From: Trichoplax adhaerens
Lineage: Eukaryota; Animalia; Placozoa
Direction: 5' to 3'
DNA: 44,404 bases
Assembly: GCF_000150275.1 (NCBI RefSeq)
Contig: NW_002060951.1
Coordinates: 2,339,919 to 2,384,322, forward strand
A program made the translations under genes and the position numbers. Positions within the stretch are counted from its first letter, which is position 1, and every line of letters begins with the position of its first letter. The notes beneath the pieces were generated by a model, which was not told the DNA's origin, ran no database searches, and was given only the letters and a program-made list of their open reading frames with translations. Positions 3,648 to 37,796 of the stretch are shown here, in pieces.

Positions 3648-6515
3648 GTTACGTTTATCTTGGATTATTATATTATAAATTTGCTGAACTAGCCAAAAAT
3701 TGAAATCGTTGCAACCAATGTGTAAATAGGACAATTTATCATAGGTACTGTTTTTGGATGTGACTGTTTAATGTTGAATAGTAGACTTTAATTTTCATCC
3801 CCTCTTCAGTAAACGTTGCTAGTGATCTTAATGATTGATTAAATTTATTTAAGTTTCCATTATTCAGTTGCCAAGGGGGTTAGTATTTTCCAATAGCGAT
3901 TGTTACGTGTTATCTTATTTTATAACAGTTTCCAATATACTGATATGTTTGTGACTTTCATCGTATCATATGTATAACCTTTATATTATTAAATGCTAGT
4001 GCATATGTGTAGTGTTCTTAATTATTCCATTTCTCATACTATGCGTACAAATTCAAAAAATATCCGATACGAATTTTATTGATAATTATAATTGTATTAG
4101 TTGTAATTCTTACAGCGGCTAAAAATAAAATGTACATTAACGTCATCTTATTCAACCGTAAGATTTTCGATCAAACTGGAAAGTTCAATTGGAGTAAATA
4201 TCTGTGAACCACAGCAGTCTGATAGCAGTCCATAAATATACAATTTTAAATATTGACGACCTAAAAATTTATATAATGAAGACGTCTGCTCTTACGATAT
4301 AGTAAACAGTAGGCGTGATAGCCATAATTTTTAATAGCTTTAATGATGTTAACGCTTTAAATATCAGTATTACTTATAAAATTGTAGTAGCTACGTACTC
4401 CAATCTATCCTGAGCGGTATTTACTTTCAAAAACTATTTGCACTGTGAGCGGTGTGAGCTAATTGCTAATGCAATATTGTGAACGATCACATACATGCTA
4501 ATTCAGTATAGTACCGCAATACGTCTGATCAGACAAGTTTTATTTACTGACAGCAATTCTTACATTTTAGAGACTTGACTTTGAGTTCGGAATACCTTAG
4601 AGTAGATTCTTGCTAGCAGTTAATTATTGCTCTACTATTCTTAAACTTTGTAATAAAAGCCTTTTCTTAAATTCTCTCTTGACTAAGACAAATATTGTGA
4701 GATACTTTTATTATACGACCGTGTAAAGGAAAATGAAATATTCTCCATACTGTCTTAACAGAACCAACATATCCTGTGTTAGTAAAAGTTTTCGCTCCAT
4801 CTATAACATCTTCATGTAATTTATCGATTTCAGCTTGAGCCTGTTTGGTCTTATCATTTACTATGCAAATACTGCGTGGGATATAGTATCATAGGTGTTT
4901 TTATTTATCGAGAATAAAGTCCCTATTAACATTTCCTTTAATCGTATGATCAGATCTGATTGATTGAAATTTCTAATTCTAAAAATAACGCATTGAAGAT
5001 TACCAAGAATTATGAAATCATCCTGTTTTGTATCTTTATGTCTACAGTAAACGAGTATATGAGTACAGTATATATCTATGTATAGGTAATTAATACTTTA
5101 CAGGTACTAATTTCGAAAATCTATCAATCACTAGTAATATAGCGTATTATTGCAACAGATGGTCATAATTTAGTTATTTAATTCTTAAAATATTTTGGAT
5201 AATAGGTATAATATTTACTTTTTCTCTTAAATCACTGTGCAACAGGATTCTAAAACTGACGGTAAATAAGTAACAGCAGGAATCTGCGGTACAAACTAAG
5301 TTATTTCGTAATAATTGAGGTCATGTTGCACTACAGCGATATACGCATGCCATTCAATCTGACTATAGTAATATACAGTGAGTTATTAGTCATGAAAGGA
5401 AAATTAAACGTAATATTATACTAAATATTAGTAGTGATGTTATTTTAATATTATTAATGTAGAGTTTTCACTTTTGGTAAGAGTTGTTTGAGGTTTAAAA
5501 TAGTCTTAAATGAGGTCATGCAGTTACTCTTTAGGGCAAGTGTACCTGATACCACCCAATATTATAGGTACTCGTATAAATGTACAGTATAGCAAGCCTA
5601 ATGATCAATGTCTACTTTATGCATTAATCATTCGACGAAATTCGTAATTGAAAACTATTGATCGTTGATCGAATAACTTTTTACTAGGTACTGTATTGTA
5701 ATTCGTATACGAATATACCAGTAACGTAAGCCATGGTTACTGAAGCAATAGCATAAGGTGGTGCCTGTCCGTCGTAAAGCTTCGTCTAAATATTCTAATA
5801 TAACTCATACTATAATATTGTATACCATACAGTGTTAACGCGTATTTTCTTATTATAATAATAATTTTTGGTTACTAACCAACTACTACACACCCAGTTG
5901 AGCGCCATTACTATAAACTCTAGCTGTACTGCTCCTGATAATAACTACAACCTGTATTCCCATGTTTTATAGCGCATCACATAGAGTGCGTTTGCACATT
6001 TTGTAATATTTATGATTCACGGTATTATTGAATTTGTTTTCTTTAATTTATCCAACAAGCATTATTTAAAAATTTACTAACGTCTACGCTACAATTACAC
6101 TCAATTTCCATTTTCCATATACGCGTATTGTGTAATGTATACGAATATTTATTATTTCAATTTATCAGTTAAAGTAACTACAGACCACAGTACAGATTAT
6201 AGATAGAATTATGAATGTACAATTGGTGATATATCTGCAATCCAGATTTAACTACGCCAGAGCATCTAATCGGCTAATGTGTAGATTAAATATAATGTAC
6301 TATTCTTGTCATTTTTACTGAAGTAACACATGGAATGAATATTGTAATAACTCTTTAGTACTGTACATTTGGCAAACAGTAAATTAGTAAGCATATAGTA
6401 TTTTATAGTTAAATTGTTAATATTCAACTTTTGTAGTATTAGTTGCCATATTCCTGACGAATTCCGTTTCTATATTGAAATTATCACCAGGTATTTCTAA
6501 TATCACGGGTCGATA

Positions 6516-10180: not shown

Positions 10181-10473
10181 CTGAATTTAAGCAATTTGTT
10201 CTTTGTTGCCAGCTACGGTATAAGCTCCTATATACTGTATACGCACGCACCGTAAGTTGCATTGCAGCATTTAGGTACGGTAATTAATAGGTAATTGTGG
10301 ACGACGTAGAACACGCTTAAAAGTAAAATGAGTACTGATTAAGGAGTTATTTGTAAATCTTTTGCTAACAGCGGTGTATTTATGAGTATTCATGAGTAAA
10401 TTGATTATATTTATCAGTAATAAATTGGCACTATAATTGAAGATGCATCTATATGATTCTGGGTTGTAGCAAA

Positions 10474-10945
10474 ATGAGTTCGAAAGGATCTTCACGCTCC
10501 TCTGAGGAAATGAACATCTTTCGTATTGCACCGTATTACTATATTCACGTCATGGATCTGAATACCAACGTGACGCGAGTAGTAAACGGACCAAAGACTT
10601 ACATACGACAGGATAATGAGAAAGTAATTTTTGGACCGGAAAAGATGGTCACAGTACCTCCACGTCATTACTGCATTGTCGAGAGCCCTGTCGTACGTAA
10701 TAAAGATGGCAATGTGGTTTTTGATACCTACGGGCAAGCTAAGCTACGACACGCAGATCTTGAAATTCGCTTTTCTCAAGAACCATTTCCGCTTTACCCT
10801 GGAGAAGTTTATAAACAAGCTCCCAAACCGCTTATGGTTGTCGCTGCGAACTCTGCTATTAGACTTAAAGCTATTTTAGATTTTGAAGAAGAGGGAACAA
10901 AAGTGAACCGTGTAGCCGGGGACGAATGGCTATTTGAAGGGCCAG
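10474..10945 (+). CDS. MVP: MVP exon 1 (start ambiguous: 10453, 10474 or 10510)
   Basis: Donor cca g|gtattt; tgggttgtag|caaaatg just upstream could be an acceptor of a 5'UTR exon, which is why I chose 10474. Confidence 0.8.
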
Positions 10946-13900
10946 GTATTTTTTTGGATGCATTGTCATGAAAATATTGATTTTTACATGACTGCACTGT
11001 TAATGAGAATGGACTTCTATTGACACTCAGGGACTTATATGCCAAGAAAGGAAGTAGAAGTAATCGAACCCGTTCGTGCTACTATAATTCAGCCGAATCA
11101 GGCAATCAAGCTGAGAGCTCGTAAACAAACTACGGTAACGTGTTTATACTTGATAGAATATCTTACATTGTAAAGAGAACTATATTTTAGCTAATTAATA
11201 AGATATACGTAATTGATTAATCGTCAGGATCGAAACGGTGTCGAGCGCGTCACCGGTGAAGAATGGACGGTTAAAAAAGTGGGTGCTTACTTACCCGGTG
11301 CATATGAAGAAGTAATGGGAACATTAGATGCCTACGTCTTGACTGAAAAGGTGCTCGATACAGTTAAACTATGACGCTTTAAAAATGCAACATTCTGGCT
11401 ACTCTACTGTATAATTATAATTGAGGCCTAGATCAAGCAAACTGTAGTGGATAGAGAACAAATCTTAAATTCGTTACCACTGTTCATGATTATTATTTAT
11501 ACATTACTAGAAAGCACTTCACCTGCGTGCTATGCGCACTTTCCGTGATTGCTTCGACATAGAAAGAAAAAATGGTGAGGAATGGCTTGTTACCATGGTT
11601 GAATCTGAAGCTTATATACCTGATGTTTACGAAGAGGTCGTACTTACTTTGATTCATACGGAGTTGATATTTATTTTTTAAATTCTTCACCTCTATTGGC
11701 TATTTAAATAACGGAAAATTTCTTATTCATTAGGTTGTAGGAGTGGTAGATATCACTACCTTAACCAATCGACAGTATGCAGTTATCCTAGATCCCGTCG
11801 GCGCCAACGGGAAACCACAACTTGGTCAAAAAAAGCTAATCAAAGTTAGTAACTTAATTAATATTGCATGTAAGATCATAATGCAAAGCAAACGATCGGC
11901 ATAGTTATTTAACTTTATATTAATACGCGTATTTGCTTTTTAGGGTGAAAAGTCGTTTTTCTTACAACCAAATGAACGCCTTGAGAGTGGAATTCAAAAT
12001 GTGTATGTTCTTGGTGAAGATGAAGGATTGATACTTAAGGCTAAAGAAGAATTTCTTGATACAGAAGATAATAAGACCCCTCGTAAGCCTGGTGATAGGT
12101 GGATGATCCGTGGTCCTATGGAATATGTACCACCAGTTGAGGTTGACGTTGTATCGAAAAGGAAAGCTATTCCTCTGGATGAAAATGAAGGTATTTATGT
12201 CCGCGACGTAAAATCAGGCAAGGTAATATTAGCATAGACTACATATTTTTATATCATTCTTGTATTCGTTATATAAATATCTTTGAACGTCGCTGCGATT
12301 TGGTAGCAAATTCTCGTATTACGCTTAGAGTAATTTAGTTTAAATATCCTACACTTATTTCGCTTGCTCGAAAAATGTTAGGTTAGGTCTATATGCGGCA
12401 AAACTTATATGCTTTCTCAAGATGAGGAATTATGGTCTAAAGAATTACCACCAACTGTCGAAGAGTTGTTAATTAGCAATAAAGACCCACTTGCCGACAG
12501 AGGAAACTATGCAACCAAAACTTCTTCAGCTAAACGTGACAAAACTAAGGTTGTCACGTTCAGAGTGCCACATAATGCGGCGGTACAAATTTATGATTAT
12601 AAGGAAAAAAAAGCGAGGTACCGTAATGCTTCGTATTTATATTGATATTAACTTCCGCCAATTAAAGCAATTGCATTCTTTATTACGTAATTTCTTGTTG
12701 TATATTTAGGGTAGTTCTTGGACCAGACTTGGTCATGCTCCGCCCCGACGAACAGTTTACGCAGATTAGCTTATCTGGTGGTAAACCGAAAAGACCTAAC
12801 CAGATTAAATCCTTATGTCTTTTACTGGGGCCGGATTTCTGTACTGATGTGCTTACTATTGAAACAGCAGATCACGCCAGGCTGCAATTACAGTTGGCTT
12901 ATAATTGGTAAATCAGTTAAATTTTCTGATTCATTATGTTACACGTTTAGAGAACGCGTTACTAAAGATTTAACAACGATTGTAGGCATTTTGAAATATC
13001 TGATAAAACTCAAACTAGTTTAGCAAAGCTTTTTGCAGTCCCGGACTTTATTGGAGATGCTTGTAAAGCGATTGCATCAAGAATTCGAGGGGCAGTTGCC
13101 AGTGTACAATTTGATGATTTCCATAAGGTAATTTTTTTGCATGGGTGAACGTAAAACGTTATCAAAATTTTTAAGAAATTAAGATTTAATGACTCGTGAT
13201 ACGTGATAGTAATTGTAAGCAATAACGAAATGTTATAGAATTCGGCAAAAATCATCTGTGCTGCAGTTTTTGGATACGATAGCGATCGGAAGCTTGGTAG
13301 TCGTTTTATCTTTCCTGCTAATAACTTAGCAATTACAAGCATAGATATACAGTCTGCAGAACCAGTAGATCAAAGAACCAGAGATGCCCTTCAAAAATCT
13401 GTACAGTTAGCTATTGAAATTACAACAAATTCCCAGGAGGCTGCAGCTAGGTATCCTCAGTAACGGCCAAACTTTGTAACTTATTTAGAAGAAACTGATT
13501 AAAATCTCGTCTATATCAGGCATGAAGCTCAAAGACTCGAGCAGGAAGCGAAGGGTCGTTTGGAGCGGCAGAAGATAAGCGATGAGGCGGAAGCTGAGAG
13601 ATCTAGGAAAAATCTCTTAGAATTACAGGCTCAAAGGTATTGAAAATACTACTAACCATTAGTAGAATGTTACAAAATCTAACACACACTTTACTATAGC
13701 GCTGCTGTAGAGTCTAGTGGTCAAGCGAAAGCCGAGGCTCAGTCTAGAGCTGAAGCAGCTAGAATTGAGGGCGAAGCCGCAGTTGAACAAGCAAAACTCA
13801 AAGCCGAAGCCCTAAATATCGAAACGGTACTTATAGCATAATGCGATATACCACTAGTAATGTGAATATACGCGTATACTGTAAAGCGAATACTTCACCT

Positions 13901-14336
13901 AGAATTAGATATCAAAATGACCATAATTTTTCTGGGATTAAAACTACAGACAGCTGAACTCGAACGTTTGACTCACGCTCGCGAAGCCGAAATTAAATAC
14001 GTTAGAGAGCAAAATGAATTGGAAATTTCAAAATCCAAACAAACTGCTATTATCGAAGTCGAAAAATTCGGAAATATGGTTAAAAGTATTGGCTCTGAAA
14101 CTCTACGTGCAATTGCAGTTGCTGGGCCAGAAAATCAGGTACTTTACAGGATTATTAGATTTTTAATTTAATGTCTTTAATTTTCCTACCCTCTTTCATA
14201 GGTTAAGCTTCTGCAGTCTCTTGGAATACAATCGACTCTGATTACTGATGGTTCTAACCCAATTAACCTTTTTAACACTGCATCTGGATTAATCGGTGCA
14301 GTTGAACCGCCACTAAAGCGAGAAAAGCTACAGTAG
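10474..14336 (+). CDS. MVP: Major vault protein. Gene span; 14 coding exons, about 857-864 aa depending on which of three in-frame ATGs is used (10453, 10474 or 10510).
   Basis: End-to-end alignment of the spliced translation with MVP as I recall it: [40 protein letters not shown]...[14 protein letters not shown]...[23 protein letters not shown]...DEWLFEGPG|[13 protein letters not shown]...|...[23 protein letters not shown]...[18 protein letters not shown]|...LADRGN...[18 protein letters not shown]|[17 protein letters not shown]...[30 protein letters not shown]|HFEIS...[35 protein letters not shown]|...[38 protein letters not shown]|[10 protein letters not shown]...|...IAVAGPENQ|[30 protein letters not shown]...*. 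Exons: 10474(10453)-10945, 11031-11134, 11228-11350, 11511-11636, 11734-11844, 11944-12222, 12382-12617, 12710-12907, 12986-13127, 13239-13450, 13520-13636, 13700-13826, 13950-14138, 14202-14336. Total from 10453 is 2592 nt (864 codons) with all phases consistent. Confidence 0.92.
11031..11134 (+). CDS. MVP: MVP exon 2
   Basis: cactcag|gg...acg|gtaacg. Confidence 0.85.
11228..11350 (+). CDS. MVP: MVP exon 3
   Basis: cgtcag|gat...aag|gtgctc. Confidence 0.85.
11511..11636 (+). CDS. MVP: MVP exon 4 (3' boundary 11636 or 11639)
   Basis: tactag|aaa...gaa gag|gtcgta. The alternative gtc|gtactt paired with acceptor ttgtag|gag gives the same phase. Confidence 0.7.
11734..11844 (+). CDS. MVP: MVP exon 5
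   Basis: cattag|gtt...atc aaa|gttagt. Confidence 0.75.
11944..12222 (+). CDS. MVP: MVP exon 6
   Basis: tttttag|ggt...ggc aag|gtaata. Confidence 0.9.
12382..12617 (+). CDS. MVP: MVP exon 7
   Basis: tgttag|gtt...gcg ag|gtaccg. Confidence 0.85.
12710..12907 (+). CDS. MVP: MVP exon 8
   Basis: atttag|g gta...aat tg|gtaaat. Confidence 0.85.
12986..13127 (+). CDS. MVP: MVP exon 9
   Basis: attgtag|g cat ttt gaa (WHFE, completing the conserved YNWHF)...cat aag|gtaatt. Confidence 0.85.
13239..13450 (+). CDS. MVP: MVP exon 10
   Basis: ttatag|aat...gct ag|gtatcc. Confidence 0.9.
13520..13636 (+). CDS. MVP: MVP exon 11
   Basis: atatcag|g cat...caa ag|gtattg. Confidence 0.9.
13700..13826 (+). CDS. 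MVP: MVP exon 12
   Basis: ctatag|c gct...acg|gtactt. Confidence 0.9.
13950..14138 (+). CDS. MVP: MVP exon 13
   Basis: actacag|aca...cag|gtactt. Confidence 0.9.
14202..14336 (+). CDS. MVP: MVP exon 14 (stop tag 14334-14336)
   Basis: tcatag|gtt...cag tag. Confidence 0.9.
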
Positions 14337-14939: not shown

Positions 14940-15109
14940 ATCCGGCTAAATGGAGCTAGTAGTATTTTTCACCTATCGCTGAGTATCAAAGATCAAATCT
15001 GCACGTACGAAGAAAATCTCTTACCATAAAAGTCTGTGTTTTACTATAAGAACAGTAGCCCTTAGTAACACAAACAAGTCTTAAAGTCTTATTTTATTGT
15101 TATCTTTAC

Positions 15110-15960
15110 AACTACGGTATACTGTACAGTACAGTACAGTATTCCGTTTCAAAGGCATACTGTACTGTACTGTGCAGTAAGTCGTTTTAATTTACAGTAG
15201 TTATAATCTTCCCGCAGCTATTATATATTCGTAATTATACTATATTATGTTGATTAAAGTTCTTGTCTACTTAAAAATCTATAACCACTAATTTTAGTCG
15301 AATATTCAGTACAGTACAGTAGGCCAGGCCAACCCAGCTTGCAAAAACCTGGTACTACTGTACAGTACACTGTACAATATTCATCGCTGAAGCAGCTCTA
15401 TCTATTCTCTTGCCTCTACTGAACCTAATACCAAGTTTCATAAAGTTTGATTAAGATTTAAACTACTGTACTGTATAGTAGTTTAAATCTTAATCTGTAC
15501 ATATTGGGTGGAAAATCATTGTTTGGAGCTCTGCCCACTATGCCAAGGTGATAATAAAAAGTATAGTACATAATAAGCGTATTTGCAGCTTGACAAGTTC
15601 TAGCCTGCTGCTGCCTCAATGTACAAACCTTCGACAGGTGTAACTAGCACTAGCTTGGTTCGAGACGGAGGGACATTCGGCCGGCCTTCAGTACTGTACT
15701 GTACAGTGTACAGTACAAGAGACCAAAGACCGCGCCTGCATCTACAGTACAGTACTGTAGGTTTTATTGTGCTAGGCCGCCTAGGCGTACAGTACTGTAC
15801 TGTACTGTACTGTAGACGTGACTCCCAGGCTAGTGAAATTTTTGTACTGTACCGCACAGTAAAAAAAGGTGTCCACTGTTGTACAGTAGAATACGATACT
15901 ACTGAAGTAGTGTACACTGTAGTGACTGTACCATGTACTGTACAGTACATATCCGATTCA
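15110..15960. repeat. GTAC-palindrome microsatellite tracts (15113-15180, 15307-15378, 15463-15481, 15688-15955) upstream of the Mondo gene
   Basis: Long runs of gtactgtactgtacagtac variants. They create the overlapping spurious ORFs 15600..15980 (-) and 15619..15999 (+). Confidence 0.9.
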
Positions 15961-16118
15961 GTCATCAGTTTAGGTCTCAAGGTAAACGGCGAAATCTAAT
16001 CTTTCACTATTTATTTATGTCGTTGTACAGTATGTAGTTTATTCTTTCTGTTTTTATCGCGAAAACAGAAATAAATTTGATTAGCAAATCCGTTAGTAGG
16101 AATACGAAAATCTTACAG

Positions 16119-16312
16119 ATGGAACGAATTTTTAATACAAATTTGCGACCAGTAAACTCTAATAATGGCAACTTATCTTCTGGCTACAATTTTGCACGTT
16201 TTGGACAAATGCCGAAGCAATACAACTTTTTCAATCGCTATACTCTGTCCGATAAGGTTGCCGATGGTGATTCTTTAGCTCAATTACTCGACTGTTTGAG
16301 ATTGGAATATAG
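16119..16312 (+). CDS. MLXIP: Mondo exon 1 (first ATG after an in-frame stop; start and the existence of further 5' exons uncertain)
   Basis: Ends ...SLAQLLDCLRLEY ag|gtatat (MCR II). Confidence 0.55.
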
Positions 16313-19300
16313 GTATATTGTGATGTATATTCTAATCCAAATTATACCATTTCAAATACAGTATAAGGTATTAAAAAGATTTCAAGGACAGCGCCTCAGT
16401 ACATAATTTGCGGTACTGTACGTGTAGTAATAAGCAATTTTTGTAGTTTAGACAGTACTGTATACTGTACGTATGTCCCGAAAACTTCAGCATGTTCAGT
16501 ACTTACAAAGGGGCACAGTTTCATAATTTACTGTACTGTATTCTATACCGTGGACCGACCGGTTAATTTATTCAGCTCGAAAAATTCATAGAAATATAAC
16601 ATCGACCAATTAATAATTTCCTAATTTTTTAGTTAATTATTAAACCTACAACTCTTTTCATTTTAGTTATTATTTAGGCAAATTTGATGTCTGAACGCAT
16701 TCACTAGAACTGTACAGTACAGTACAGTGTACACTGCACAGTATAGCTGTATTTTAACCAGCACGCGAACTGTATCATACTGTGCTTCCTGCTGTACCGT
16801 ATTGTACAGTACAGTGTTCACCTTATGATCACGTATTCAATGCACTAGTTGGTTGCCATGTCATAAACTGCAAGTGTTTTCCTTATAGTTAAGTACAGTA
16901 ATTGCCATACACTAAGTATTTCAAAATTATTAATACGCAATTTGCTGTCACAAAATGAATTACTAGCCTAAAATTGCAATGAATTATTATCATTAAAATA
17001 TACGATGGCTTGTTTCTGACATTAGCCCCTTCTACAGTATATCGCAAATCCCCAGTTCTCCTATATTTAGTGATATTTAGACTAGTTAATGTAGACTGTA
17101 CAATGTACAGTCTACATTCGTGGTACATTAATTAAGTTAAGTTAACGTTGTCGTGTAGCACATTTATAAACACAAAATATTAACATATCATGAAATCTTT
17201 ATTATGGACTATTATCGACTGGTTTGAAACCCCTTTTTTCTTATATTAGTGACACCTTGCTAACTCCGAGATGGAAGAACTTCAAAAGTCAAAATCTAAA
17301 ATGGGAACAAAAACGGAGATTAAACAACATCATTTGGAGAGCCTGGCACATGCAATGTAAGTTGTATTAAAGTTAACCCTCTGATACTTACAACAGCGCA
17401 AAGTTCTTGCAATAATGTTCTTGTTTCATGCTATACAATTTTCAATAAATATTCAAAATTTTATGACTACATAATTACAGTACGATTGTATCATAACCCG
17501 AGGTTATTCACTATTTATGCTGCAATCGTTAGATAGATTTATTGCGCTATACTGCTTCATTTTTTACGCGTATTAGTCACTTTTGCCGTAACTTATCTTT
17601 ATGTAAAAAAATGTCGTTAGCAATGTGTGAAATATCCAATATACTATTAAGTTCCAAGTAGTATACGAAGTGGTAGATTCAAGACATGCCAACCGATAAA
17701 AGATAAAGAAGTACCTTATAGTACTAAGCTGCCATATATGCTGCGCTTCGTGAATCGTATCCAACAGTTTATAAATATAATTAGAAGCTGCCAATGATCT
17801 TATTGATCTTTTGGATAATGTACATGAAGTTGTTGAACCTGTTTAATTGTAGAATCTTTAGTAAAAAGCCACAATCTGTGCGGTATTACATAATCTTGAT
17901 AACAGTTTTTATGTTGGGACGGAAGAGAAGAGCACAGTATACTATCAGAAACGTATCTATCGTTGCGGTTTTGATGTGCTACGTTCGACATTACGACTAA
18001 CAAGGTCTTCCTATTTAACAGTTCAAAAGCATCGTAACTTGCCATTCTGTAAATTTGCCATCCCTTTCCTTGAAAATATGCACAATAAACCTCAGGTATT
18101 GACGTAATAAAAAGCTCTATATTTAAAGAATTAAAGTAAACCGTTGTATGGATAGCCATGACTACCAATCTATCCTAATTTTAATAATTGATCACTGTAT
18201 TACATCAAGCAATGACAGGAGCGTATCATAAATATTCTTAAATATTTTTCTACATGAAGGCAATCGTAGTAGAAGGTGAACATTGGCGTCGAAGGCTTGA
18301 TGCCATTGCGTCAGAATATAAACGATGGAGATGTTATTTTGGGCAGGTACTTGTATGATCTAGTCGCTAGATTACGAATCTTACCTCTAAAAATGAGATT
18401 TTTGTCTTTATTAGCTAATTGTAATTTTTGATCTTTTCGAAATTTAGACTGTTACACCTCCTGAAACAGAGACACAAGTCATTCTGGGAAATGTCTGTTA
18501 TATTTTGTCTACATCATCATATAACGTTAAATCGATATCGTTTTATAGATTTTTACCTTATTGCTACGTTTTATGTGCTTCTATAGGATGATGAATTATC
18601 GCAACAACTGAATGATGCATCCAATAAATTGATCAAAGAACAATTGACAGGGTTAGTCAACTAAGATATTATTTTGTAAGCAATAGGTCTTGAAGCTGCT
18701 TCATAACTTGAATACCCCCGTTACTGCTGAGAATAATCATTTCAGTATTTTCATTGATAATCTTAATTAGGCCAGGGAATGATAGCGAAATATTCCAAAA
18801 TTCAGCAGATGGTAAGTGTCACAGCTGCAGATTAGAGGTAGTATAACAGCAGTAATTTATCGTAACGGGTATTCACTGCTAGTTATTGTAATTTTTAGAT
18901 TTTTTTTCGTATTGAGTTGTAAGTCGAGTACTGATTTCGAATCTTTCATTACAGTTTTCATGTTACCAGATACGCTCTTTTCCAGTCTAGCACCTGTAGA
19001 CGACTTCAATTCTACCGACGAAAGACTTATGGGTAAGAAAGTCTTCGGTAGTTATTATCATGAAGACGTAGCAAAAGAATAATAATAGATTACGTTGTTC
19101 TTTAATATAGATACAGCAGATTTAATCCAACCAACCCTTGATCAATTACAGCCGTCTGTTGCAGATTTATTGGCTACGATGGAAGATAACGGTGAGAGCA
19201 TTATTTCGATATTAAAAAATGCATGCTTTAACAATTGACTATTTAATGCGAATTGCAGTTAGCTAAATTTCTTTCCATATAACCATGTCTTTACGACAAA

Positions 19301-21906
19301 AACAGATAACTACTTCTTAAAAAAATTGGACGAAACTCCTCCGTTTTCCTTTACCGCTCAGCCTCAAGGTTTAGCAGCTACTCAAAATCTGACACAATCC
19401 CAAAAAAATAAAGCACCAATTTCATATCATCCAATTGACGAGCAGCATTACAAACATGTAGTGCCAGCAAATGTTGAAATTAATCAAAATGTTGCAAACC
19501 ATGGTCATCAAGAATTAGGGCTTATGAATGTTAGTAACTATAACTGCTCCGCCATCGACACTAATGCTACTGGATCATCCAACTCTATCCAGAATGTACC
19601 GCGTGCTGATAATGTTCATTTAGCTATGCATCAGAACCGCTTTAACCAGCAATCCTATCAATTACATAACATAAGTATGGAATCTACAGCTACTTTTATT
19701 AAGACATCTAACAATCAGCTATCGGAATTAGAGAATCAGTTACCCCAGGATTCCTTTCATGTATACCCAAACGTCGACAACAGGCAACGTCATCCAAACC
19801 TAGGAGCCGGAACTACCAATCATAATAATCATCCACCTAAATTAAACAATATTTCAGAAATTCAAACGAGATTTAGACCTAGAGCTCCAGATCAATCTTC
19901 GAAATCTCCATCAACTCCTGCCCATATTTTGTACAATCCTGTAAATAATCAGCAAGCAATGGTTTCTGAAGGCGCTGTTCCAGAATCTCCTGGCCGCGGA
20001 TTTAGTAAAGAAAATCAGCCTATTCCCAGTCAATCAAGTTATACCTTTTGGAATGAACAAACTCAAGATTCTAGTGATAAATTTTTATCGCAACGGCCAG
20101 CCGCCGCCAGTCAGGAAAGAATTGTCGCCAACACCGCTACTGATAATTCTTTCCTAGCTCGATTGCTTACGAATTCAAATTTTACTCAAGAATCGAGACA
20201 ATATCAACGTCATTCAATCGAGAGACACTACGTAGCTAAGCCAGTACCAATTGCGCCTGCTCAAAATAAGGTACAGATGAACAACTCGCCTTCGTTGGGA
20301 AATTTACAGTATGACTGGAATCAGACGCGAGAATCATCGAAAACCTTAGATAATGTAACTATATCTACTGAATGCTTTGCCATTTTTGGTTGTATTACAC
20401 CCATAAGGCTTCATCACTTACTAATTTACGATTTGCTTAATATTAAGAATGAATCTACGTCTTTGCCGGTTAGCCCTACTCATACTGGCTCCATAGCACA
20501 CGGTAAGTAAGCAACGCTGTAAACTTAACTATTCACCATCTTGCACCCATGTAATCTTTTATTATTGTCCCTTAGTTGTGGAGCCGACTGGATTCGCTAA
20601 GATTGAATCGCATAGTGGCTATATGAATAGTATTCAGATGACCAGCAAAGCTAATATGAATACATCGTCGGAAAGCCAGACTAAGCCGTCAGTTACTAAT
20701 GAGGTTGTTTAATTAAACCTTGAGTTTATAATAGCGAAAATGACAAGCTGCAGGATAAGAGTGTTGTTTTTAGACTATATGGGTAAAATCTTAGATAGTT
20801 ATAAACATTTCTCATTTAGGAATATCGAAGGAGATCGCATCAGTCTTCCGAGCAGAAACGCCGTGGCAATATTAAGGTTTTCGGCCTTTTTTATGATGAA
20901 ATCACTAGCACAATATAAATCTCGATGACGTAACTAATGATTACTATTAATTTATTAGCTAAGATTTGAGAAACTGCAGTCTCTAGTACCATCGTTAACT
21001 TCAGTGCACAATGCAAGAAACAGTAAAGCAACTATTCTTCAAAAATGTCAGTAAGATTAATTTATGAGTATTCTTAGATGAAATATGGCTAAGTAATGGT
21101 AATCCTAGTTTTTTTCTATTTTCTGTCGCCTAAATTAGCAATTGATTATTGTAAAACCTTAACCCAAGAAAAACAAGCGATGCAAGCTGAAATTCAGAGA
21201 CTTAAAAGTAGAATTTTAGAGTTAAATGAGGGTATAAAGTACGTAAAATTCTATGTTGTAATAGCGTAATGTTTTAACGGAGATACTATTACTCATACCA
21301 ATTTATATACGTTACATGTATAGTAAATGTCATCAACAATTACCTGTGACTGGTGCTACTGTTACCCAGCAGCGAGCTGATCAATTACGGCAAAAATTTG
21401 ACGAATACGTTAAAAAAAGGACTTTAAGCAATTATAAATTCTGGATTGTATCCTTTTCGCTTAGGATTATACATCTTTCGAGTGGCAATCCCTCAGAATT
21501 TACTTTCTTCTGTTTGTTTATATATTTTATGTTTACTCTCAAATGCAATCTGTGATTCTTTAACGATATAAAACTGCTACAGTTTAGCATCATTATTAGG
21601 CCGTTGTTCGAGTCATATAGCAACACTGCTGTAACATCAAGCTATGATGAATTCTACCGAACAATGCAAGCATGGATGGATCAGCACTGCACTCTTGTTC
21701 AATTGAGACCAGGTATGATTGCATGACCAGGTAATTGCTATCTGTTTAACATAAAGATTAATGCAAGAACTAATCTGTTTCCTTTCATTTCAGTTGTCAT
21801 GGCCGCGCTTTGTCAGCTAAGTACCGATACGGATATACTATCGAATCCATCATTAGTTCCTGTTCAGGCTGTAGAAGCTGCAAAAAAATTATTAGTTGAA
21901 AATTAA
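16119..21906 (+). CDS. MLXIP: Mondo family (MLXIP/MLXIPL, MondoA/ChREBP-like) glucose-responsive bHLH-leucine-zipper transcription factor. Gene span; 17 coding exons, about 930 aa.
   Basis: Spliced translation shows the Mondo conserved regions: SLAQLLDCLRLEY|SDTLLTPRWKNFKSQNLKWEQKRRLNNIIWRAWHMQ (human, as I recall it: SLTKLFECMTLAYSGKLVSPKWKNFKGLKL...RLNNAIWRAWYIQ); ...YYQKRIYRCGFDVL... (KRKSPVCGFVTPL); AIVVEGEHWRRRLDAIASEYKRWRCYFGQ (AVILEGNYWKRRIEVVMREYHKWRIYY); TADLIQPTLDQLQPSVADLL (ADMIQPDLTPLQPSLDDFMD). It then has a 1.2-kb Q/N/S-rich exon, followed by the bHLH-ZIP EYRRRSHQSSEQKRRGNIK|LRFEKLQSLVPSL...SKATILQKS|IDYCKTLTQEKQAMQAEIQRLKSRILELNEG (RRITHISAEQKRRFNIKLGFDTLHGLVSTL...KVSKATTLQKTAEYILMLQQE), and the C-terminal WMC/DCD domain KCHQQLPVTGATVTQQRADQLRQKFDEYVKKRTLSNYKFWI|FSIIIRPLFESYSN...AWMDQHCTLVQLRP|VVMAALCQLSTDTDILSNP (CQQQLPATGVPITHQRFDQMRDMFDDYVRTRTLHNWKFWVFSILIRPLFESFNG...AWLDQYCSLPALRP). 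Exons: 16119-16312, 17250-17356, 17938(alt 17906)-18095, 18260-18346, 18448-18492, 18587-18651, 18770-18810, 18955-19032, 19111-19191, 19306-20502, 20576-20703, 20820-20876, 20959-21046, 21139-21238, 21324-21447, 21583-21712, 21794-21906. Total 2793 nt (931 codons) with consistent phases. Confidence 0.85.
16405..16820. repeat. GTAC-palindrome microsatellite tracts inside Mondo intron 1 (16410-16550, 16708-16818)
   Basis: gcggtactgtacgtgtag, gacagtactgtatactgtacgt, gaactgtacagtacagtacagtgtacactgcacagtatag... Confidence 0.8.
17088..17118. repeat. Near-perfect 31-bp palindrome (15-bp arms, 1-nt spacer) in Mondo intron 1
   Basis: aatgtagactgtaca a tgtacagtctacatt. Confidence 0.8.
17250..17356 (+). 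CDS. MLXIP: Mondo exon 2 (MCR II/III: PRWKNFK...IIWRAWHMQ)
   Basis: tattag|t gac...caa t|gtaagt. Confidence 0.85.
17938..18095 (+). CDS. MLXIP: Mondo exon 3 (CGF motif; 5' boundary uncertain, the alternative 17906 requires donor caatgtaa|gttgta)
   Basis: Frame carries ...YYQKRIYRCGFDVLRSTL... and ends cct cag|gtattg in phase 0, matching exon 4. Confidence 0.55.
18260..18346 (+). CDS. MLXIP: Mondo exon 4 (MCR IV: AIVVEGEHWRRRLDAIASEYKRWRCYFGQ)
   Basis: catgaag|gca...ggg cag|gtactt. Confidence 0.85.
18448..18492 (+). CDS. MLXIP: Mondo exon 5 (TVTPPETETQVILGN)
   Basis: aatttag|act...aat|gtctgt. Confidence 0.5.
18587..18651 (+). CDS. MLXIP: Mondo exon 6 (DDELSQQLNDASNKLIKEQLTG)
   Basis: ctatag|gat...aca gg|gttagt. 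Confidence 0.6.
18770..18810 (+). CDS. MLXIP: Mondo exon 7
   Basis: taattag|g cca...gat g|gtaagt. Confidence 0.55.
18955..19032 (+). CDS. MLXIP: Mondo exon 8 (MCR V-like copy 1: VFMLPDTLFSSLAPVDDFNSTDERLMG)
   Basis: cattacag|tt...atg g|gtaaga. Confidence 0.7.
19111..19191 (+). CDS. MLXIP: Mondo exon 9 (MCR V-like copy 2: DTADLIQPTLDQLQPSVADLLATMEDN)
   Basis: taatatag|at...aac g|gtgaga. Confidence 0.75.
19306..20502 (+). CDS. MLXIP: Mondo exon 10 (1.2-kb Q/N/S/P-rich low-complexity central region)
   Basis: Acceptor aaaaacag|at; corresponds to track ORF 19326..20510; perfect donor cac g|gtaagt at 20502/20503. Confidence 0.8.
20576..20703 (+). CDS. MLXIP: Mondo exon 11
   Basis: cccttag|tt gtg...aat gag|gttgtt. 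Confidence 0.7.
20820..20876 (+). CDS. MLXIP: Mondo exon 12 (bHLH basic region: EYRRRSHQSSEQKRRGNIK)
   Basis: catttag|gaa...att aag|gttttc. Confidence 0.85.
20959..21046 (+). CDS. MLXIP: Mondo exon 13 (helix-loop-helix: LRFEKLQSLVPSLTSVHNARNSKATILQK)
   Basis: ttattag|cta...aaa t|gtcagt. Confidence 0.75.
21139..21238 (+). CDS. MLXIP: Mondo exon 14 (leucine zipper)
   Basis: aaattag|ca att gat...ata aa|gtacgt. Confidence 0.8.
21324..21447 (+). CDS. MLXIP: Mondo exon 15 (WMC domain; ends at the U12-type donor)
   Basis: gtatag|t aaa tgt...ttc tgg att|GTATCCTTT. Confidence 0.85.
21448..21582 (+). other. MLXIP: U12-type (minor spliceosome) GT-AG intron in the Mondo gene
   Basis: The 5' splice site att|GTATCCTTT matches the U12 consensus exactly. 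The branch-site-like TTCTTTAAC at 21557-21565 lies about 18 nt upstream of the acceptor ctacag|ttt. Splicing here restores ...YKFWI|FSIIIRPLFES..., which matches human FWVFSILIRPLFES as I recall it. Confidence 0.8.
21583..21712 (+). CDS. MLXIP: Mondo exon 16
   Basis: ...ctacag|ttt agc...cca g|gtatga. Confidence 0.85.
21794..21906 (+). CDS. MLXIP: Mondo exon 17 (stop taa 21904-21906)
   Basis: tttcag|tt gtc atg gcc...gaa aat taa. Confidence 0.85.
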
Positions 21907-34800: not shown

Positions 34801-37796
34801 ACTTCTTCGGAAATATAGTTCTTATCAATTTTTCTAAATTGTCTTTATTCGATTGGCAAACTCTGTATAGGAGATCTAGACACGGATGAATCTGAACAAG
34901 AGACTGCTGAAGATGAAGACGAAGAGGAAGATGGAGATGTTGATTATCAAGATACATTCCGAAAGAGAAGGCGAGCTGCAGTAGTAGCCAGGAAACGTGT
35001 CCAAAAATACATGAATGAAACTGGAGTCGCTAGCGATACTGATACTGAGAATGCAAATGCCAGCAAGAAAAACAACGATGCCGATTTTAATATAAATTCT
35101 GTTAATACACACGGTAGTGTAGGGATAGGACTATTAACCGAGAATAGGATTTCAAGTAGTTTTCCTATGGCATCATCTGGCGGTTTTGGAACTTCTCCAA
35201 ATCTTAGCTTAAATAATAACTATAGTATGAGCGGAGTACGAATTCAATCTCCTGTTATGATGCCTCAAATGAATAGCATGATAAGCGATCATGCCATACA
35301 TAATAATCCGAATCAAATATTTAATATGGCTAATGGCCTTATGAAATCGCCTCCTGTTCATTCACCAACTTTAGGAACTTTAACCTCACCCATGGGTAAT
35401 GATATGCAGACATCACCTACCTTTGTTAATGAAAGCTTTCAGTCATGCAGTAATGTAAACCAACCATCGTACTATCAGCCTCAGCCGCAAGCGATTAACA
35501 ATATAGATTATCAATCACAGCCTTTATCTGGTTACAATTCATCTGCCCAAAATTTTACAAATCCATCGCATATGCAACTATCACCTCAGATGACCCCACA
35601 GTACCCAAATCCTTCACACGTTTATTCTCAACATCATTCTCATCACGTGCCTTCAATGATTCATAGTCAAGACCCTCATTATCAACATTTTCCTAACTTT
35701 CACAATATGCCATCACAAGAAGTAGCTCCGTATGGTGTCTCTCAGTATAATCAGTACCATTGGTTAGGTCATCCACAGCAGCCCCAGACAATACAGCACA
35801 TGCCATCATCTCAGTATGCGGTGTCACCGATACAATCCGTAAGCGGCAGTCTTGGTATGACTGGACCTGCCAATCAGCAGTTCTCTATAGGACAGCCTGA
35901 ACAAGCACCATCACAAAAATTGTCGCATAGTACTGACCACCAATTATCAACGAATAACCTACCTAATGTTACAAATTTTAATGCAAGCAATTCTTTTGCA
36001 ATTTGCAATGAAACAAAAGATAACATAGATAAATTGAACACTAAGGAAGTACTGTCAATATCAACTGAAGCCAGTATTTTAGACGTTGCCACCAAGACGC
36101 CGACTATACGAGGTCAAAGTAAGAAATCAGATACTGATAGTAGTATTGAAAAGGAAACAGTTACCAAGGTTACTACAGGAGAACAGTTTGAAACAGCCGA
36201 AACTTTAAAATCTCAAGTTAAAGCATATGATATCCCAAAAAATAAACAGAATGATAACCATAACTCAGTTGAATTTCACCATCTACAAGAATCAAATTCA
36301 GTGAGATATAGAGAAGAACGCGATAAAGATGTATCACACTTAAATACCGAAATATTTCAGAAGCAGACATCTGGGAACTTATCTAACGCTACTGAAGGTA
36401 TTTAAATGGGAGTATTTTTATTGTATTTCTGATGTAGTTTTCACTGGATAATTTACACTTATATTGGTTTGGTGTTTAGCAAAATCCATTAAGAATTTCT
36501 TTTTCTAAATTGGATTATAATCTTAAAGGTAATAGAAACTCTGTCATTAAGGAATCATCGGACAACCCTATTAGCAATCCGAATCAGACTGACAAAACGT
36601 CGGTAAGAAATCTTGCGTTGATAAATTATTCGGCTTCGAACATTAGAACACAACCTGGCCTTCCGATATGGCATTGATATCTTAGCTTATTAAAACTACC
36701 TATAATTTATTCATCTGTGTTTGTGAATAAACTTACTAGCTTCGTTAATTAAGATGCATTTAAGACTCGTAAACATAAATAAATTTTTGCAGTTCTATTG
36801 CTGTAATATGATTTCTTAGTTCATAGAAAATAGAAGGATTCTTCATCTACATAAAGACCTTTCATCATAAAATCTAAACTAGACTGATCAAAGCTGATAA
36901 AGTATCCTTTTTACATCTCATGTAATTGCAGATTAATCTGGAAGAAAATCAAATATGTCCGAAAACCAAAGTGAAGAAAGATGGGAAAGACGATTCATTT
37001 AAGTCCGATGATGGCATTAGTAAGAACGAAAAATCTAAAAACGAAAGCAATGCCGATGAAATTAAATCTAAAATAGAAGCGGACGCTTCCTCTAAAAGAA
37101 ATAAAATGAACGACACAGCAAATTCTAGTGATAAGTCAGCAACAAATGAACCTAATCAACAAATTTGTGATTCCACGAAAGATTCTAAAGATGGCTTAAA
37201 GCATGCCAAAGAACAGCGAAACCTGGAAGAAGTAGATAATAAGTCAAACAATTACGATAAGGATATTCATAGAGGTAATAGCAGAAAATTTTTATAAAGC
37301 TTATAAGATGTATGGTATAATACTTGTAAAAGGTGTAGATATACACGTAGATGTTATACGTTGGTAGATACGAAATAATAACCTATTATACTAGTACTAT
37401 CAATACTTAATTTAAAAATCTGGCAAAGTGAAATTCAGAAGGAGTAGGTAGTGCGGCCTTAATATATGAAAATACGGATAGTACGTATTATTTTTTGAAA
37501 TATCTGATAGGTGTAAGACATACTGTAAATATGGTTAGTGTGGTACATTAATAACAGGTCGTATATTGACAGATCCTGAAACTAATGCTCGTGGTGCATT
37601 GGATAACATAAAGTCTACTCCTTGTAGTGGTGACACTGTACGACCCCTTAATGTAGATGTAGAGCCCCATCGTATGTGTGATAATTGTAATCAACCCGCC
37701 TTCTTTCTCTGTTCCGGCTGTAAAACCACATGGTATTGCAGTCAACGGTGCCAGGCGAGTAAATTCAATAATTCTTTCGCAAATCATCTAGCCTAA
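31635..37796 (+). CDS. Tudor-like + PHD finger + MYND zinc-finger protein with a very long Q/N/S/P-rich region (chromatin-reader-like; domain order is reminiscent of ZMYND8/ZMYND11-class proteins, but no bromodomain or PWWP is recognisable). Gene span; 8 coding exons, about 916 aa.
   Basis: Exons 31635-31806 (MNLNKKFPHAINDVIIVKCQNNYYYAKIKSIDKRRRKCKVLFDDKSTDDLPFSDIYS: Tudor/Agenet-like pattern), 33572-33667 and 34218-34372 (PHD C4HC3: CIVCKSGSSESPNEIVLCDRCSIG|YHQQCHSPQIPESVLKPDVPWLCHYCQ), 34536-34680 (basic KKPIDKKLRK...RKTISKRKR), 34871-36397 (acidic then 1.4-kb Q/N/S-rich; contains track ORF 35011..36405), 36529-36602, 36932-37274 (K/D/S/E-rich), 37558-37796 (MYND: CDNCNQPAFFLCSGCKTTWYCSQRCQ). 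All GT-AG with consistent phases; total 2751 nt (917 codons). Confidence 0.7.
32488..33208. repeat. GTAC-palindrome microsatellite tracts in intron 1 of the Tudor/PHD/MYND gene (32488-32712, 33015-33208)
   Basis: cggtactgcacgg...tactgtatactgtactgtacgttcagtacagtacagg...; aatacagtacagtactgtactgtacagtatat...ccatacagtacagtactgtgcactgtacagtacagtattcc. They give the spurious ORFs 32483..32758, 32542..32730, 32939..33211 and 33064..33282. Confidence 0.85.
33572..33667 (+). CDS. Tudor/PHD/MYND gene exon 2 (PHD N-half)
   Basis: ctcaag|tt ggc...att g|gtaagt. Confidence 0.7.
34218..34372 (+). CDS. Tudor/PHD/MYND gene exon 3 (PHD C-half)
   Basis: tatttag|ga tat cat...aat aag|gtaacg. Confidence 0.75.
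34536..34680 (+). CDS. Tudor/PHD/MYND gene exon 4 (basic region)
   Basis: caatcag|aaa aag...aag c|gtaagt. Confidence 0.7.
34871..36397 (+). CDS. Tudor/PHD/MYND gene exon 5 (acidic stretch + 1.4-kb Q/N/S/P-rich low-complexity region)
   Basis: tgtatag|ga gat...act gaa g|gtattt. If this donor is not used the ORF ends at taa 36403-36405 instead. Confidence 0.7.
36529..36602 (+). CDS. Tudor/PHD/MYND gene exon 6 (small; boundaries least certain)
   Basis: ttaaag|gt aat aga...acg tcg|gtaaga; phase-compatible with its neighbours. Confidence 0.45.
36932..37274 (+). CDS. Tudor/PHD/MYND gene exon 7 (K/D/S/E-rich)
   Basis: attgcag|att aat...aga g|gtaata; track ORF 36926..37297. Confidence 0.65.
37558..37796 (+). 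CDS. Tudor/PHD/MYND gene exon 8 (MYND zinc finger, stop taa 37794-37796)
   Basis: ataacag|gt cgt...C-x2-C-x7-C-x2-C...WYCSQRCQ; track ORF 37566..37796. Confidence 0.75.

What the first reader, a model, noticed from the sequence alone, without database searches (positions are those of the whole stretch)
21448..21582. Textbook U12-type (minor spliceosome) intron in the Mondo/MLXIP gene
The only way to join the WMC-domain exons in frame, giving ...YKFWI|FSIIIRPLFES... (which matches human FWVFSILIRPLFES as I recall it), is an intron whose 5' end is att|GTATCCTTT. That is the exact U12 donor consensus. It has a TTCTTTAAC branch-site-like element 18 nt upstream of the ctacag acceptor, and the intron is 135 nt long. 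No U2-type GT donor exists at a compatible phase. Minor-class introns are rare and phylogenetically informative. Its presence implies an intact minor spliceosome in this AT-rich lineage.
Basis: partly seen in the sequence, partly recalled or inferred. Interest (0 to 1): 0.6.

Follow-up and report, generated by a model that had tools for sequence, protein, structure and literature searches.

The report
Conserved minor-class intron in Trichoplax Mondo
The 135-base segment is a real U12-type (minor-spliceosome) intron in the Trichoplax Mondo/MLXIP gene. The same intron is already catalogued in human and mouse MLXIP and MLXIPL, and Trichoplax is already known to have a minor spliceosome, so the finding is correct but ordinary.

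Summary
Window 21448-21582 (+) is a 135-nt GT-AG intron that begins GTATCCTTT. It has TTCTTTAAC at 21556-21564, 18 nt before the exon, no polypyrimidine tract, and ends CAG. Removing it gives KFWI|FSIIIRPLFES, a block that is invariant or nearly so in 15 Mondo proteins.

The window is Trichoplax adhaerens, and the public model TRIADDRAFT_28773 already uses this junction.

A scoring matrix built from 60 human minor 5' splice sites gives this site 15.7 bits (training median 15.5). Only 2 of 5349 GT sites in the window score as high. The four neighbouring introns score -19 to -1.4.

An intron sits at the same codon boundary and is U12-type in Nematostella, Lottia, Asterias, a lizard MLXIP, a beetle and a moth. 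In Daphnia it is U2-type. It is absent in one unidentified eukaryote. The MLX paralogue has a U2-type intron at the aligned position.

The Minor Intron DataBase lists human and mouse MLXIP and MLXIPL as minor-intron genes, with matching splice-site strings. The Trichoplax minor snRNAs were published in 2008-2009.

No transcript data could be examined.

The parts
21324..21447 (+). Upstream exon, encoding (N)KCHQQLPVTGATVTQQRADQLRQKFDEYVKKRTLSNYKFWI and ending in phase 0
   Evidence: Exon model. It is 100% identical to the public protein P0001. Orthologue alignment.
21448..21582 (+). U12-type (minor-class) GT-AG intron, 135 nt. If retained, it has an in-frame TGA at 21553-21555.
21448..21456 (+). 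5' splice-site motif GTATCCTTT (the 12-mer ATT|GTATCCTTT)
   Evidence: The scoring matrix gives 15.67 bits, equal to the training median of human minor 5' splice sites. The identical 12-mer is the SLC25A30 minor 5' splice site in the Minor Intron DataBase, scored 96.6/98.3 there.
21556..21564 (+). Branch-point sequence TTCTTTAAC. The candidate branch adenosines are 21562 and 21563, 19-20 nt from the last intron base.
   Evidence: The 12-mer GATTCTTTAACG scores 7.24 bits, and only 1.1% of AG sites in the window have an equally good motif in their last 40 nt. The same TCTTTAAC core is in the human MLXIP branch site TTTTCTTTAACC.
21580..21582 (+). 3' splice site CAG. It is the first AG after the branch site, and no polypyrimidine tract precedes it (7 of 18 bases are pyrimidines).
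21583..21712 (+). Downstream exon, encoding FSIIIRPLFESYSNTAVTSSYDEFYRTMQAWMDQHCTLVQLRP
20820..21906 (+). C-terminal bHLHZip-DCD/WMC part of the Mondo gene. It has six exons: 20820-20876, 20959-21046, 21139-21238, 21324-21447, 21583-21712 and 21794-21906, including the stop codon at 21904-21906. The other four introns are U2-like.
   Evidence: The other introns score -19.1 to -1.4 with the minor 5' splice-site matrix.
17248..17355 (+). N-terminal Mondo conserved-region exon (WKNFKS...RLNNIIWRAWHMQ)
   Evidence: tblastn gives 55-61% identity to proteins named MLXIP or MLXIPL: P0072, P0093, P0117, P0156 and P0160. ORF scan.
18188..18352 (+). N-terminal Mondo conserved-region exon (EGEHWRRRLDAIASEYKRWR)
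   Evidence: tblastn hits of the same MLXIP/MLXIPL proteins. ORF scan.

Best explanation
Window 21448-21582 is a GT-AG intron of the U12 (minor) class in the single Mondo (MLXIP/MLXIPL-type) gene of Trichoplax adhaerens.

Inferred mechanism, from established knowledge of minor splicing:
- The U11/U12 di-snRNP recognises the rigid 5' splice site GTATCCTTT and the branch site TTCTTTAAC together.
- One of the adenosines at 21562 or 21563 attacks the 5' splice site.
- The first downstream AG (21581-21582) is used as the acceptor, without help from a polypyrimidine tract.
- This joins codon I (ATT) to codon F (TTT) in phase 0, inside the C-terminal dimerisation/cytoplasmic-localisation (DCD/WMC) domain.
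- If the intron were retained, translation would stop at the TGA at 21553-21555, 35 codons into the intron, and would lose the rest of that domain.

The intron is ancient. It occupies the same codon boundary and keeps the U12 signals in Cnidaria, Mollusca, Echinodermata, Vertebrata, Coleoptera and Lepidoptera.

Shown here: the sequence signals, the reading-frame restoration and the orthologous conservation. Inferred: actual excision by the minor spliceosome in vivo.
For: Sequence signals at the stated coordinates.

Junction:
- It restores the KFWIFS...PLFES block, which is invariant or nearly so.
- It is the one used in the public protein TRIADDRAFT_28773, which matches the model at 154 of 155 aligned residues. 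The single mismatch is the first aligned residue, at the start of the third exon.
- Of 74 legal in-frame joins, only this one restores the conserved block.

Scoring matrix built from 60 human GT-AG minor 5' splice sites, with MLXIP left out:
- This site scores 15.67 bits; the training median is 15.48.
- Only 2 of 5349 GT sites in the window reach that score.
- The four neighbouring introns score -19.1 to -1.4.
- The branch-site score of 7.24 bits is reached by 1.1% of AG sites.

The identical 5' 12-mer is an accepted minor site (SLC25A30) in the Minor Intron DataBase.

Orthologous introns, same position and phase:
- Nematostella: GTATCCTGT...TCCTTGAC
- Lottia: GTATCCTTTT...CTCCTTAAC
- Asterias: GTATCCTTTT...ATCCTTAAC
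- Lizard MLXIP: GTATCCTTTC...CCCTTAAC
- Popillia: GTATCCTTTT...TTCTTAAC
- Phthorimaea: GTATCCTTTG...TCCTTAGC

The Minor Intron DataBase lists human and mouse MLXIP (ATT|GTATCTTTG) and MLXIPL (GTG|GTATCCTTA/CC) as minor-intron genes. The last exon codons ATT and GTG match KFWI and KFWV in the mammalian proteins.

Trichoplax has U11, U12, U4atac and U6atac.
Against: - No transcript or lariat data could be examined, so use of this junction, and of the minor rather than the major spliceosome, is inferred.
- The branch site has one mismatch to TCCTTAAC (C to T; this would still allow a G-U pair with U12, as I recall the human U12 sequence).
- The branch site scores in the lowest 7% of the human training set.
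- The branch site lies 19-20 nt from the 3' splice site, further than the 11-13 nt optimum quoted in PMC6717393. The lizard (18 nt) and Asterias (17 nt) orthologues are similar.
- Trichoplax U2-type donors are degenerate. The next intron starts GTATGA, so the first four bases, GTAT, are not diagnostic on their own.
Confidence: 0.93

Rival explanations
1. It is an ordinary U2-type intron whose donor happens to read GTATCC, and the major spliceosome removes it.
For: - The terminal dinucleotides are GT-AG.
- Trichoplax U2-type donors in this gene are weak and varied: GTTTTC, GTCAGT, GTACGT and GTATGA.
- At the same position Daphnia has a plain U2-type intron, and so does the MLX paralogue. The position itself can therefore be served by the major spliceosome.
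- The bare RTATCCTT motif is not enriched in the window.
Against: - The full 12-mer scores at the median of human minor sites and beats all but one other GT in 88.8 kb of two-strand sequence.
- Only G+1, T+2 and A+3 fit the U2 consensus GTRAGT, and the exon ends ATT rather than AG.
- There is no polypyrimidine tract.
- A U12-type branch motif is correctly placed before the first AG.
- Intron bases +1 to +7 are identical in seven lineages that diverged more than 550 million years ago, while the rest of the intron is unrelated and ranges from 125 to 1735 nt.
Confidence: 0.04
2. The true junction is different. An alternative donor/acceptor pair nearby is used, or the segment is read through as coding sequence, and the published model is wrong here.
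For: There are 74 dinucleotide-legal, in-frame, stop-free joins in 21360-21650. The public model is a computational prediction and is demonstrably truncated at its 5' end.
Against: - Every alternative deletes or inserts residues inside a block that is invariant or nearly so in 15 orthologues.
- Read-through hits a TGA at 21553-21555.
- Orthologous genes are interrupted at exactly this codon boundary in nine loci.
Confidence: 0.02

Closest known systems
Minor (U12-type) intron of human and mouse MLXIP (MondoA), listed in the Minor Intron DataBase (Olthof et al. 2019, PMC6717393)
   Same: - Same gene family and GT-AG subtype.
- Same last exon codon (ATT, coding for I of KFWI).
- Same branch-site core TCTTTAAC in human (TTTTCTTTAACC).
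- The position is confirmed directly in a lizard MLXIP locus that has the LRRC43 neighbour.
   Different: - The mammalian donor is GTATCTTTG (C to T at +6), whereas Trichoplax has the perfect GTATCCTTT.
- The mouse intron is 1987 nt; the Trichoplax intron is 135 nt.
- Trichoplax has one Mondo gene rather than two paralogues.
Minor intron of human and mouse MLXIPL (ChREBP), listed in the Minor Intron DataBase
   Same: A U12-type GT-AG intron after the KFW[V/I] codon, with donor GTATCCTTA/GTATCCTCC and branch site CTCCTTGAC.
   Different: The last exon codon is GTG (V). The branch site has G rather than A at the purine position. It is a vertebrate-specific paralogue.
Conserved U12-type intron in domain I segment 1 of Cav/Nav channel genes, described in species that include Trichoplax (PMC6259924)
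   Same: An earlier published example of a U12-type intron position shared by early-branching animals and vertebrates.
   Different: It is an AT-AC subtype in an unrelated gene family.
U2-type intron at the aligned position of the paralogue MLX (Paralvinella, Parasteatoda)
   Same: A phase-0 intron at the aligned boundary KFQV|FQ, matching KFWI|FS, in the homologous C-terminal domain.
   Different: It has GTAAGT or GTGAGT donors and long polypyrimidine tracts, so it is major-class. MLX was not found in the Minor Intron DataBase supplement text that is held.

Membership tests
U12-type (minor-class) GT-AG intron | 5' splice site matching /RTATCCTTT | tested here: met
   GTATCCTTT at 21448-21456. 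The matrix score is 15.67 bits against a training median of 15.48, and 2 of 5349 GT sites in the window reach it. The identical 12-mer is scored 96.6/98.3 in the Minor Intron DataBase for SLC25A30.
U12-type (minor-class) GT-AG intron | Branch-point sequence resembling TTCCTTRAC close to the 3' splice site (optimum 11-13 nt; databases search the last 40 nt) | tested here: met
   TTCTTTAAC at 21556-21564 has one mismatch, and its adenosine is 19-20 nt from the intron end. It scores 7.24 bits, which is the 7th percentile of the human training set but is reached by only 1.1% of AG sites. This is a weak-side member, similar to the human MLXIP branch site TTTTCTTTAACC (scored 86.9 in the database, above its cut-off of 65).
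U12-type (minor-class) GT-AG intron | No polypyrimidine tract, and the first AG after the branch site used as acceptor | tested here: met
   The 18 nt GATATAAAACTGCTACAG contain 7 pyrimidines, and the only AG is the terminal one. Compare the Daphnia and MLX U2-type introns, which have long pyrimidine runs.
U12-type (minor-class) GT-AG intron | Orthologous introns at the same position are U12-type in other lineages | tested here: met
   This holds for six other lineages, plus the database entries for human and mouse. The exceptions are Daphnia (U2-type) and the metagenomic eukaryote L010 (no intron).
U12-type (minor-class) GT-AG intron | The host genome encodes U11, U12, U4atac and U6atac | not testable with these tools
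   The Trichoplax genome could not be searched here, and the window itself has no Rfam hit. Published work reports the full minor snRNA set in Trichoplax, with U4atac expression verified (PMC2396436; PMC2655684).
U12-type (minor-class) GT-AG intron | Excision depends on the minor spliceosome in vivo | not testable with these tools
   No RNA-seq, lariat or knock-down data were accessible.
Mondo (MLXIP/MLXIPL) transcription factor gene | bHLH-leucine zipper followed by the Mondo/Mlx C-terminal DCD/WMC domain, closer to Mondo than to MLX | tested here: met
   Pfam HLH, E = 1.5e-13. It is 49-55% identical over at least 95% of the query to proteins named MLXIP or ChREBP, against 30-35% to MLX.
Mondo (MLXIP/MLXIPL) transcription factor gene | N-terminal Mondo conserved regions on the same gene | tested here: met
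   Window 17248-17355 and 18188-18352 (+) match the N-terminal parts of named MLXIP/MLXIPL proteins at 55-61% and 33-43% identity. That the N- and C-terminal exons are joined in one transcript is inferred, not shown.

The most novel reading that the evidence does not exclude
The intron may predate the Mondo/Mlx gene duplication. The paralogue MLX has a phase-0 intron at the aligned codon boundary, but it is U2-type. U12-to-U2 conversion is the commonly documented direction. The ancestral Mondo/Mlx gene would then have carried a U12-type intron here. That intron would have been kept as U12 in Mondo from Placozoa to mammals, converted independently in MLX and in Daphnia Mondo, and lost in at least one lineage. 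This would make the site a small natural series for studying intron class switching.
Probability: 0.55. Interest if true: 0.25.

Novelty: already known. Interest (0 to 1): 0.15.

Why it matters
It matters little beyond correct annotation. The intron adds a well-supported placozoan instance to a minor intron already catalogued in mammals. It also shows that this intron has kept its class for the whole of animal evolution, which fits the established picture that many U12 introns are ancient and positionally conserved.

Two practical uses:
- It is a clean marker junction for checking minor-spliceosome activity in placozoan RNA-seq.
- The public Trichoplax model of this gene should be extended upstream.

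It does not reveal a new feature of the lineage. The Trichoplax minor spliceosome was described in 2008-2009.

Tried and rejected
- Rfam at gathering thresholds on the whole window gave no hits, so no snRNA gene lies in the window.
- An exact-protein look-up of the public Trichoplax protein P0001 found nothing on record, so no independent assembly or transcript contig was obtained.
- The shark locus P0010 returned no DNA because the gene range is too long.
- I looked for a published statement that this particular Trichoplax intron is U12-type and found none.
  - MIDB 2024 (PMC11347168) includes Placozoa among its species, but no supplement is held.
  - Larue & Roy 2023 and Moyer 2020 do not mention Trichoplax in the text that is held.
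  - Full-text searches for MLXIP or MLXIPL together with minor-intron terms found no discussion.
- I rejected treating the bare RTATCCTT motif count as evidence. It occurs 6 times against 4.2 expected. The five other copies lie in frames full of stop codons and have no suitable branch site.
- Tandem Repeats Finder found nothing in 14-23 kb.
- I considered a metagenome scan for more MLX loci but did not run it. Most such contigs are short, intron-less transcript fragments from unidentified organisms.
Full report
**What is there.** The window is AT-rich, about 33% G+C. On the + strand at 20820-21906 it carries six exons. They encode a bHLH-leucine-zipper followed by the C-terminal dimerisation (DCD/WMC) domain typical of Mondo and Mlx proteins.

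The fourth exon ends ...AAT TAT AAA TTC TGG ATT at 21447. The next 135 bases begin GTATCCTTTTCG and contain TTCTTTAAC at 21556-21564. They end GATATAAAACTGCTACAG at 21582. The following exon begins TTT AGC ATC ATT ATT AGG CCG TTG TTC GAG TCA.

**Organism and gene.** The spliced C-terminal translation is 100% identical, from the third exon onward, to the public protein TRIADDRAFT_28773 of Trichoplax adhaerens. The window is therefore Trichoplax, and the public model already uses the junction 21447^21583.

The best non-self matches are 49-55% identical over almost the full query. They are named MLX-interacting protein or carbohydrate-responsive element-binding protein. MLX proteins match at only 30-35%. 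Pfam finds the HLH domain.

Upstream on the same strand, 17248-17355 and 18188-18352 match the N-terminal conserved regions of named MLXIP/MLXIPL proteins. The gene is a Mondo orthologue spanning roughly 16.0-21.9 kb. The public 169-residue model is a 3' fragment that starts at an ATG inside the intron 21047-21138.

**Is it more than chance?** The bare motif RTATCCTT is not enriched: 6 copies against 4.2 expected. The other five copies lie in frames full of stop codons and have no correctly placed branch motif.

The evidence lies in the combination of features. I built position weight matrices from one part of the Minor Intron DataBase supplement (PMC6717393). They used 60 human GT-AG minor 5' splice sites and 82 branch sites, with MLXIP itself left out.

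| Measure | Result |
|---|---|
| 5' 12-mer ATT\|GTATCCTTT | 15.67 bits |
| Training median, 5' sites | 15.48 bits |
| GT sites in the window (both strands) scoring as high | 2 of 5349 |
| Four neighbouring introns of the gene, 5' score | -19.1 to -1.4 bits |
| Best branch 12-mer, GATTCTTTAACG | 7.24 bits |
| Position of that branch score in the human set | 7th percentile |
| AG sites in the window with an equally good branch motif | 1.1% |

The identical 5' 12-mer is the accepted minor site of SLC25A30 in that database, scored 96.6/98.3. Human MLXIP has the same TCTTTAAC branch core.

There is no polypyrimidine tract, and the acceptor is the first AG after the branch motif. The branch-to-acceptor distance of 19-20 nt is longer than the quoted optimum of 11-13 nt. 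It is similar to the lizard (18 nt) and starfish (17 nt) orthologues.

**The junction.** I found 74 dinucleotide-legal, stop-free, in-frame joins within 21360-21650. They include GT donors at 21361, 21409, 21516, 21531 and 21552.

Only 21448-21582 restores ...NYKFWIFSIIIRPLFES... without an insertion or deletion. F121, W122, I123 and S125 are invariant, and K120 and F124 nearly so, in 15 Mondo proteins. Read-through meets a TGA at 21553-21555.

**Comparison with orthologues.** I fetched genomic loci for Mondo proteins from eight other organisms and located the homologous codon boundary (analysed).

| Organism | Intron at KFW[I/V/L]\|FS | 5' end | Branch motif | Length (nt) |
|---|---|---|---|---|
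| Nematostella | U12-type | GTATCCTGT | TCCTTGAC | 650 |
| Lottia | U12-type | GTATCCTTTT | CTCCTTAAC | 711 |
| Asterias | U12-type | GTATCCTTTT | ATCCTTAAC | 1442 |
| Lizard Phrynocephalus (MLXIP, next to LRRC43) | U12-type | GTATCCTTTC | CCCTTAAC | 1735 |
| Beetle Popillia | U12-type | GTATCCTTTT | TTCTTAAC | 125 |
| Moth Phthorimaea | U12-type | GTATCCTTTG | TCCTTAGC | 589 |
| Daphnia | U2-type | GTAATT, pyrimidine tract | none | 95 |
| Unidentified eukaryote, JGI metagenome | no intron | - | - | - |

All the U12-type introns are phase 0. Bases +1 to +7 are identical in all seven U12 cases, including Trichoplax, while the intron bodies are unrelated. That is the signature of selection on minor-class splice signals.

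**What was already known.** The Minor Intron DataBase paper lists both MLXIP and MLXIPL as minor-intron genes in human and mouse.
- MLXIP has the 5' site ATT|GTATCTTTG and branch sites TTCTCCTTAACC and TTTTCTTTAACC.
- MLXIPL has the 5' site GTG|GTATCCTTA/CC.
- The last exon codons, ATT and GTG, correspond to KFWI in mammalian MLXIP and KFWV in MLXIPL. These are therefore the same intron.

Minor-spliceosome snRNAs were reported in Trichoplax in 2008 (PMC2396436). The full U11/U12/U4atac/U6atac set, with experimental detection of U4atac, followed in 2009 (PMC2655684). A conserved U12-type intron in calcium and sodium channel genes has been described in a comparison that includes Trichoplax (PMC6259924). 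The 2024 release of the database paper includes Placozoa among its 263 species. I could not open its tables to see whether this very intron is listed.

**Mechanism.**
- Shown here: the sequence signals, the frame restoration and the deep conservation.
- Inferred from established knowledge of minor splicing: the U11/U12 di-snRNP binds GTATCCTTT and TTCTTTAAC. The C-to-T change in the branch site would still allow a G-U pair with U12, as I recall the human U12 sequence. A21562 or A21563 is the branch point, and the first AG downstream is the acceptor.
- If the intron were retained, the protein would be truncated within the DCD/WMC domain.
- No transcript data were available to me. The rival readings, a U2-type intron with an odd donor or a different junction, therefore remain formally open but are very unlikely.

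**A by-product.** In the paralogue MLX, BLASTP aligns KFQV|FQ with KFWI|FS. The MLX genes of the annelid Paralvinella and the spider Parasteatoda have a phase-0 intron exactly there, but it is U2-type: GTAAGT or GTGAGT donors with long pyrimidine tracts. MLX does not appear in the Minor Intron DataBase text that is held.

The simplest reading is that the intron predates the Mondo/Mlx duplication and changed class in MLX and in Daphnia Mondo. This is plausible but rests on two MLX loci. It is a familiar kind of event.

**Verdict.** The feature is a well-conserved, already catalogued minor intron in a lineage already known to have a minor spliceosome. Interest is low. The useful outputs are a corrected view of the truncated public gene model and a documented series of kept, switched and lost states for this intron position.

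Noticed in passing
window 21047-21138 and 16000-21906 (+): The public model TRIADDRAFT_28773 (169 aa) starts at an ATG inside the intron 21047-21138 (MVILVFFYFLSPKLA...). It therefore lacks the bHLH exons (20820-20876, 20959-21046), the long low-complexity exon (about 19263-20507) and the N-terminal Mondo conserved-region exons (17248-17355, 18188-18352). The window supports one longer Mondo gene.
   Followed up: partly
window 15100-16900: The stretch between the 3' end of the major vault protein gene and the first Mondo exons holds about 15 dispersed short clusters of the pentanucleotide repeat (TACAG)n/(TACTG)n in both orientations. Many of them form inverted pairs, for example 15120-15148 with 15151-15179 (90% complementary, 2 nt apart). 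Tandem Repeats Finder sees no long array. Their origin and role are unexplained.
   Followed up: partly
L001 4512-5082 (Nematostella, inside the orthologous U12 intron 4474-5123): The cnidarian copy of this intron is almost entirely filled by 11.2 tandem copies of a 51-nt unit (87% matches). Only the U12 splice signals at its two ends are left unrepeated.
   Followed up: partly
L004 1541-1635 (Daphnia pulex); L010 1476-1511 (JGI metagenome 3300010395 contig): In Daphnia Mondo the intron sits at the same codon boundary but is U2-type (GTAATT..., pyrimidine tract, 95 nt), which is an apparent class switch. An unidentified eukaryote contig from a metagenome encodes Mondo with no intron at this site, and its 559-aa gene is called as a single ORF.
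   Followed up: partly
L007 6082-6767 (Paralvinella MLX); L008 19167-20301 (Parasteatoda MLX): The paralogue MLX has a phase-0 intron at the aligned position (KFQV|FQ), but it is U2-type (GTAAGT or GTGAGT donors with long pyrimidine tracts). This suggests that the intron position predates the Mondo/Mlx duplication.
   Followed up: partly
window 10453-14330 (+) and 3096-3647 (+): Two neighbouring genes were seen. A major vault protein gene lies immediately upstream of Mondo on the same strand (Pfam Vault_2, Vault and MVP_shoulder hits). A TPR-repeat ORF lies near 3.1-3.6 kb.
   Followed up: partly
window 36902-36910 (+): A second perfect GTATCCTTT occurs here, probably the only other GT site in the window that reaches the Mondo 5' splice-site score (I did not print which site it was). 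All three upstream frames contain stop codons, and no branch motif lies at a suitable distance, so it looks like a chance match.
   Followed up: partly
literature (PMC2396436), not in the window: Trichoplax and cnidarian U6atac are reported to carry a 'CC variant' ([GU]CCGA) in place of the AAGGA element thought to pair with the 5' splice site. Even so, both the Trichoplax and the Nematostella Mondo introns keep the canonical ATCCT at their 5' ends.
   Followed up: no
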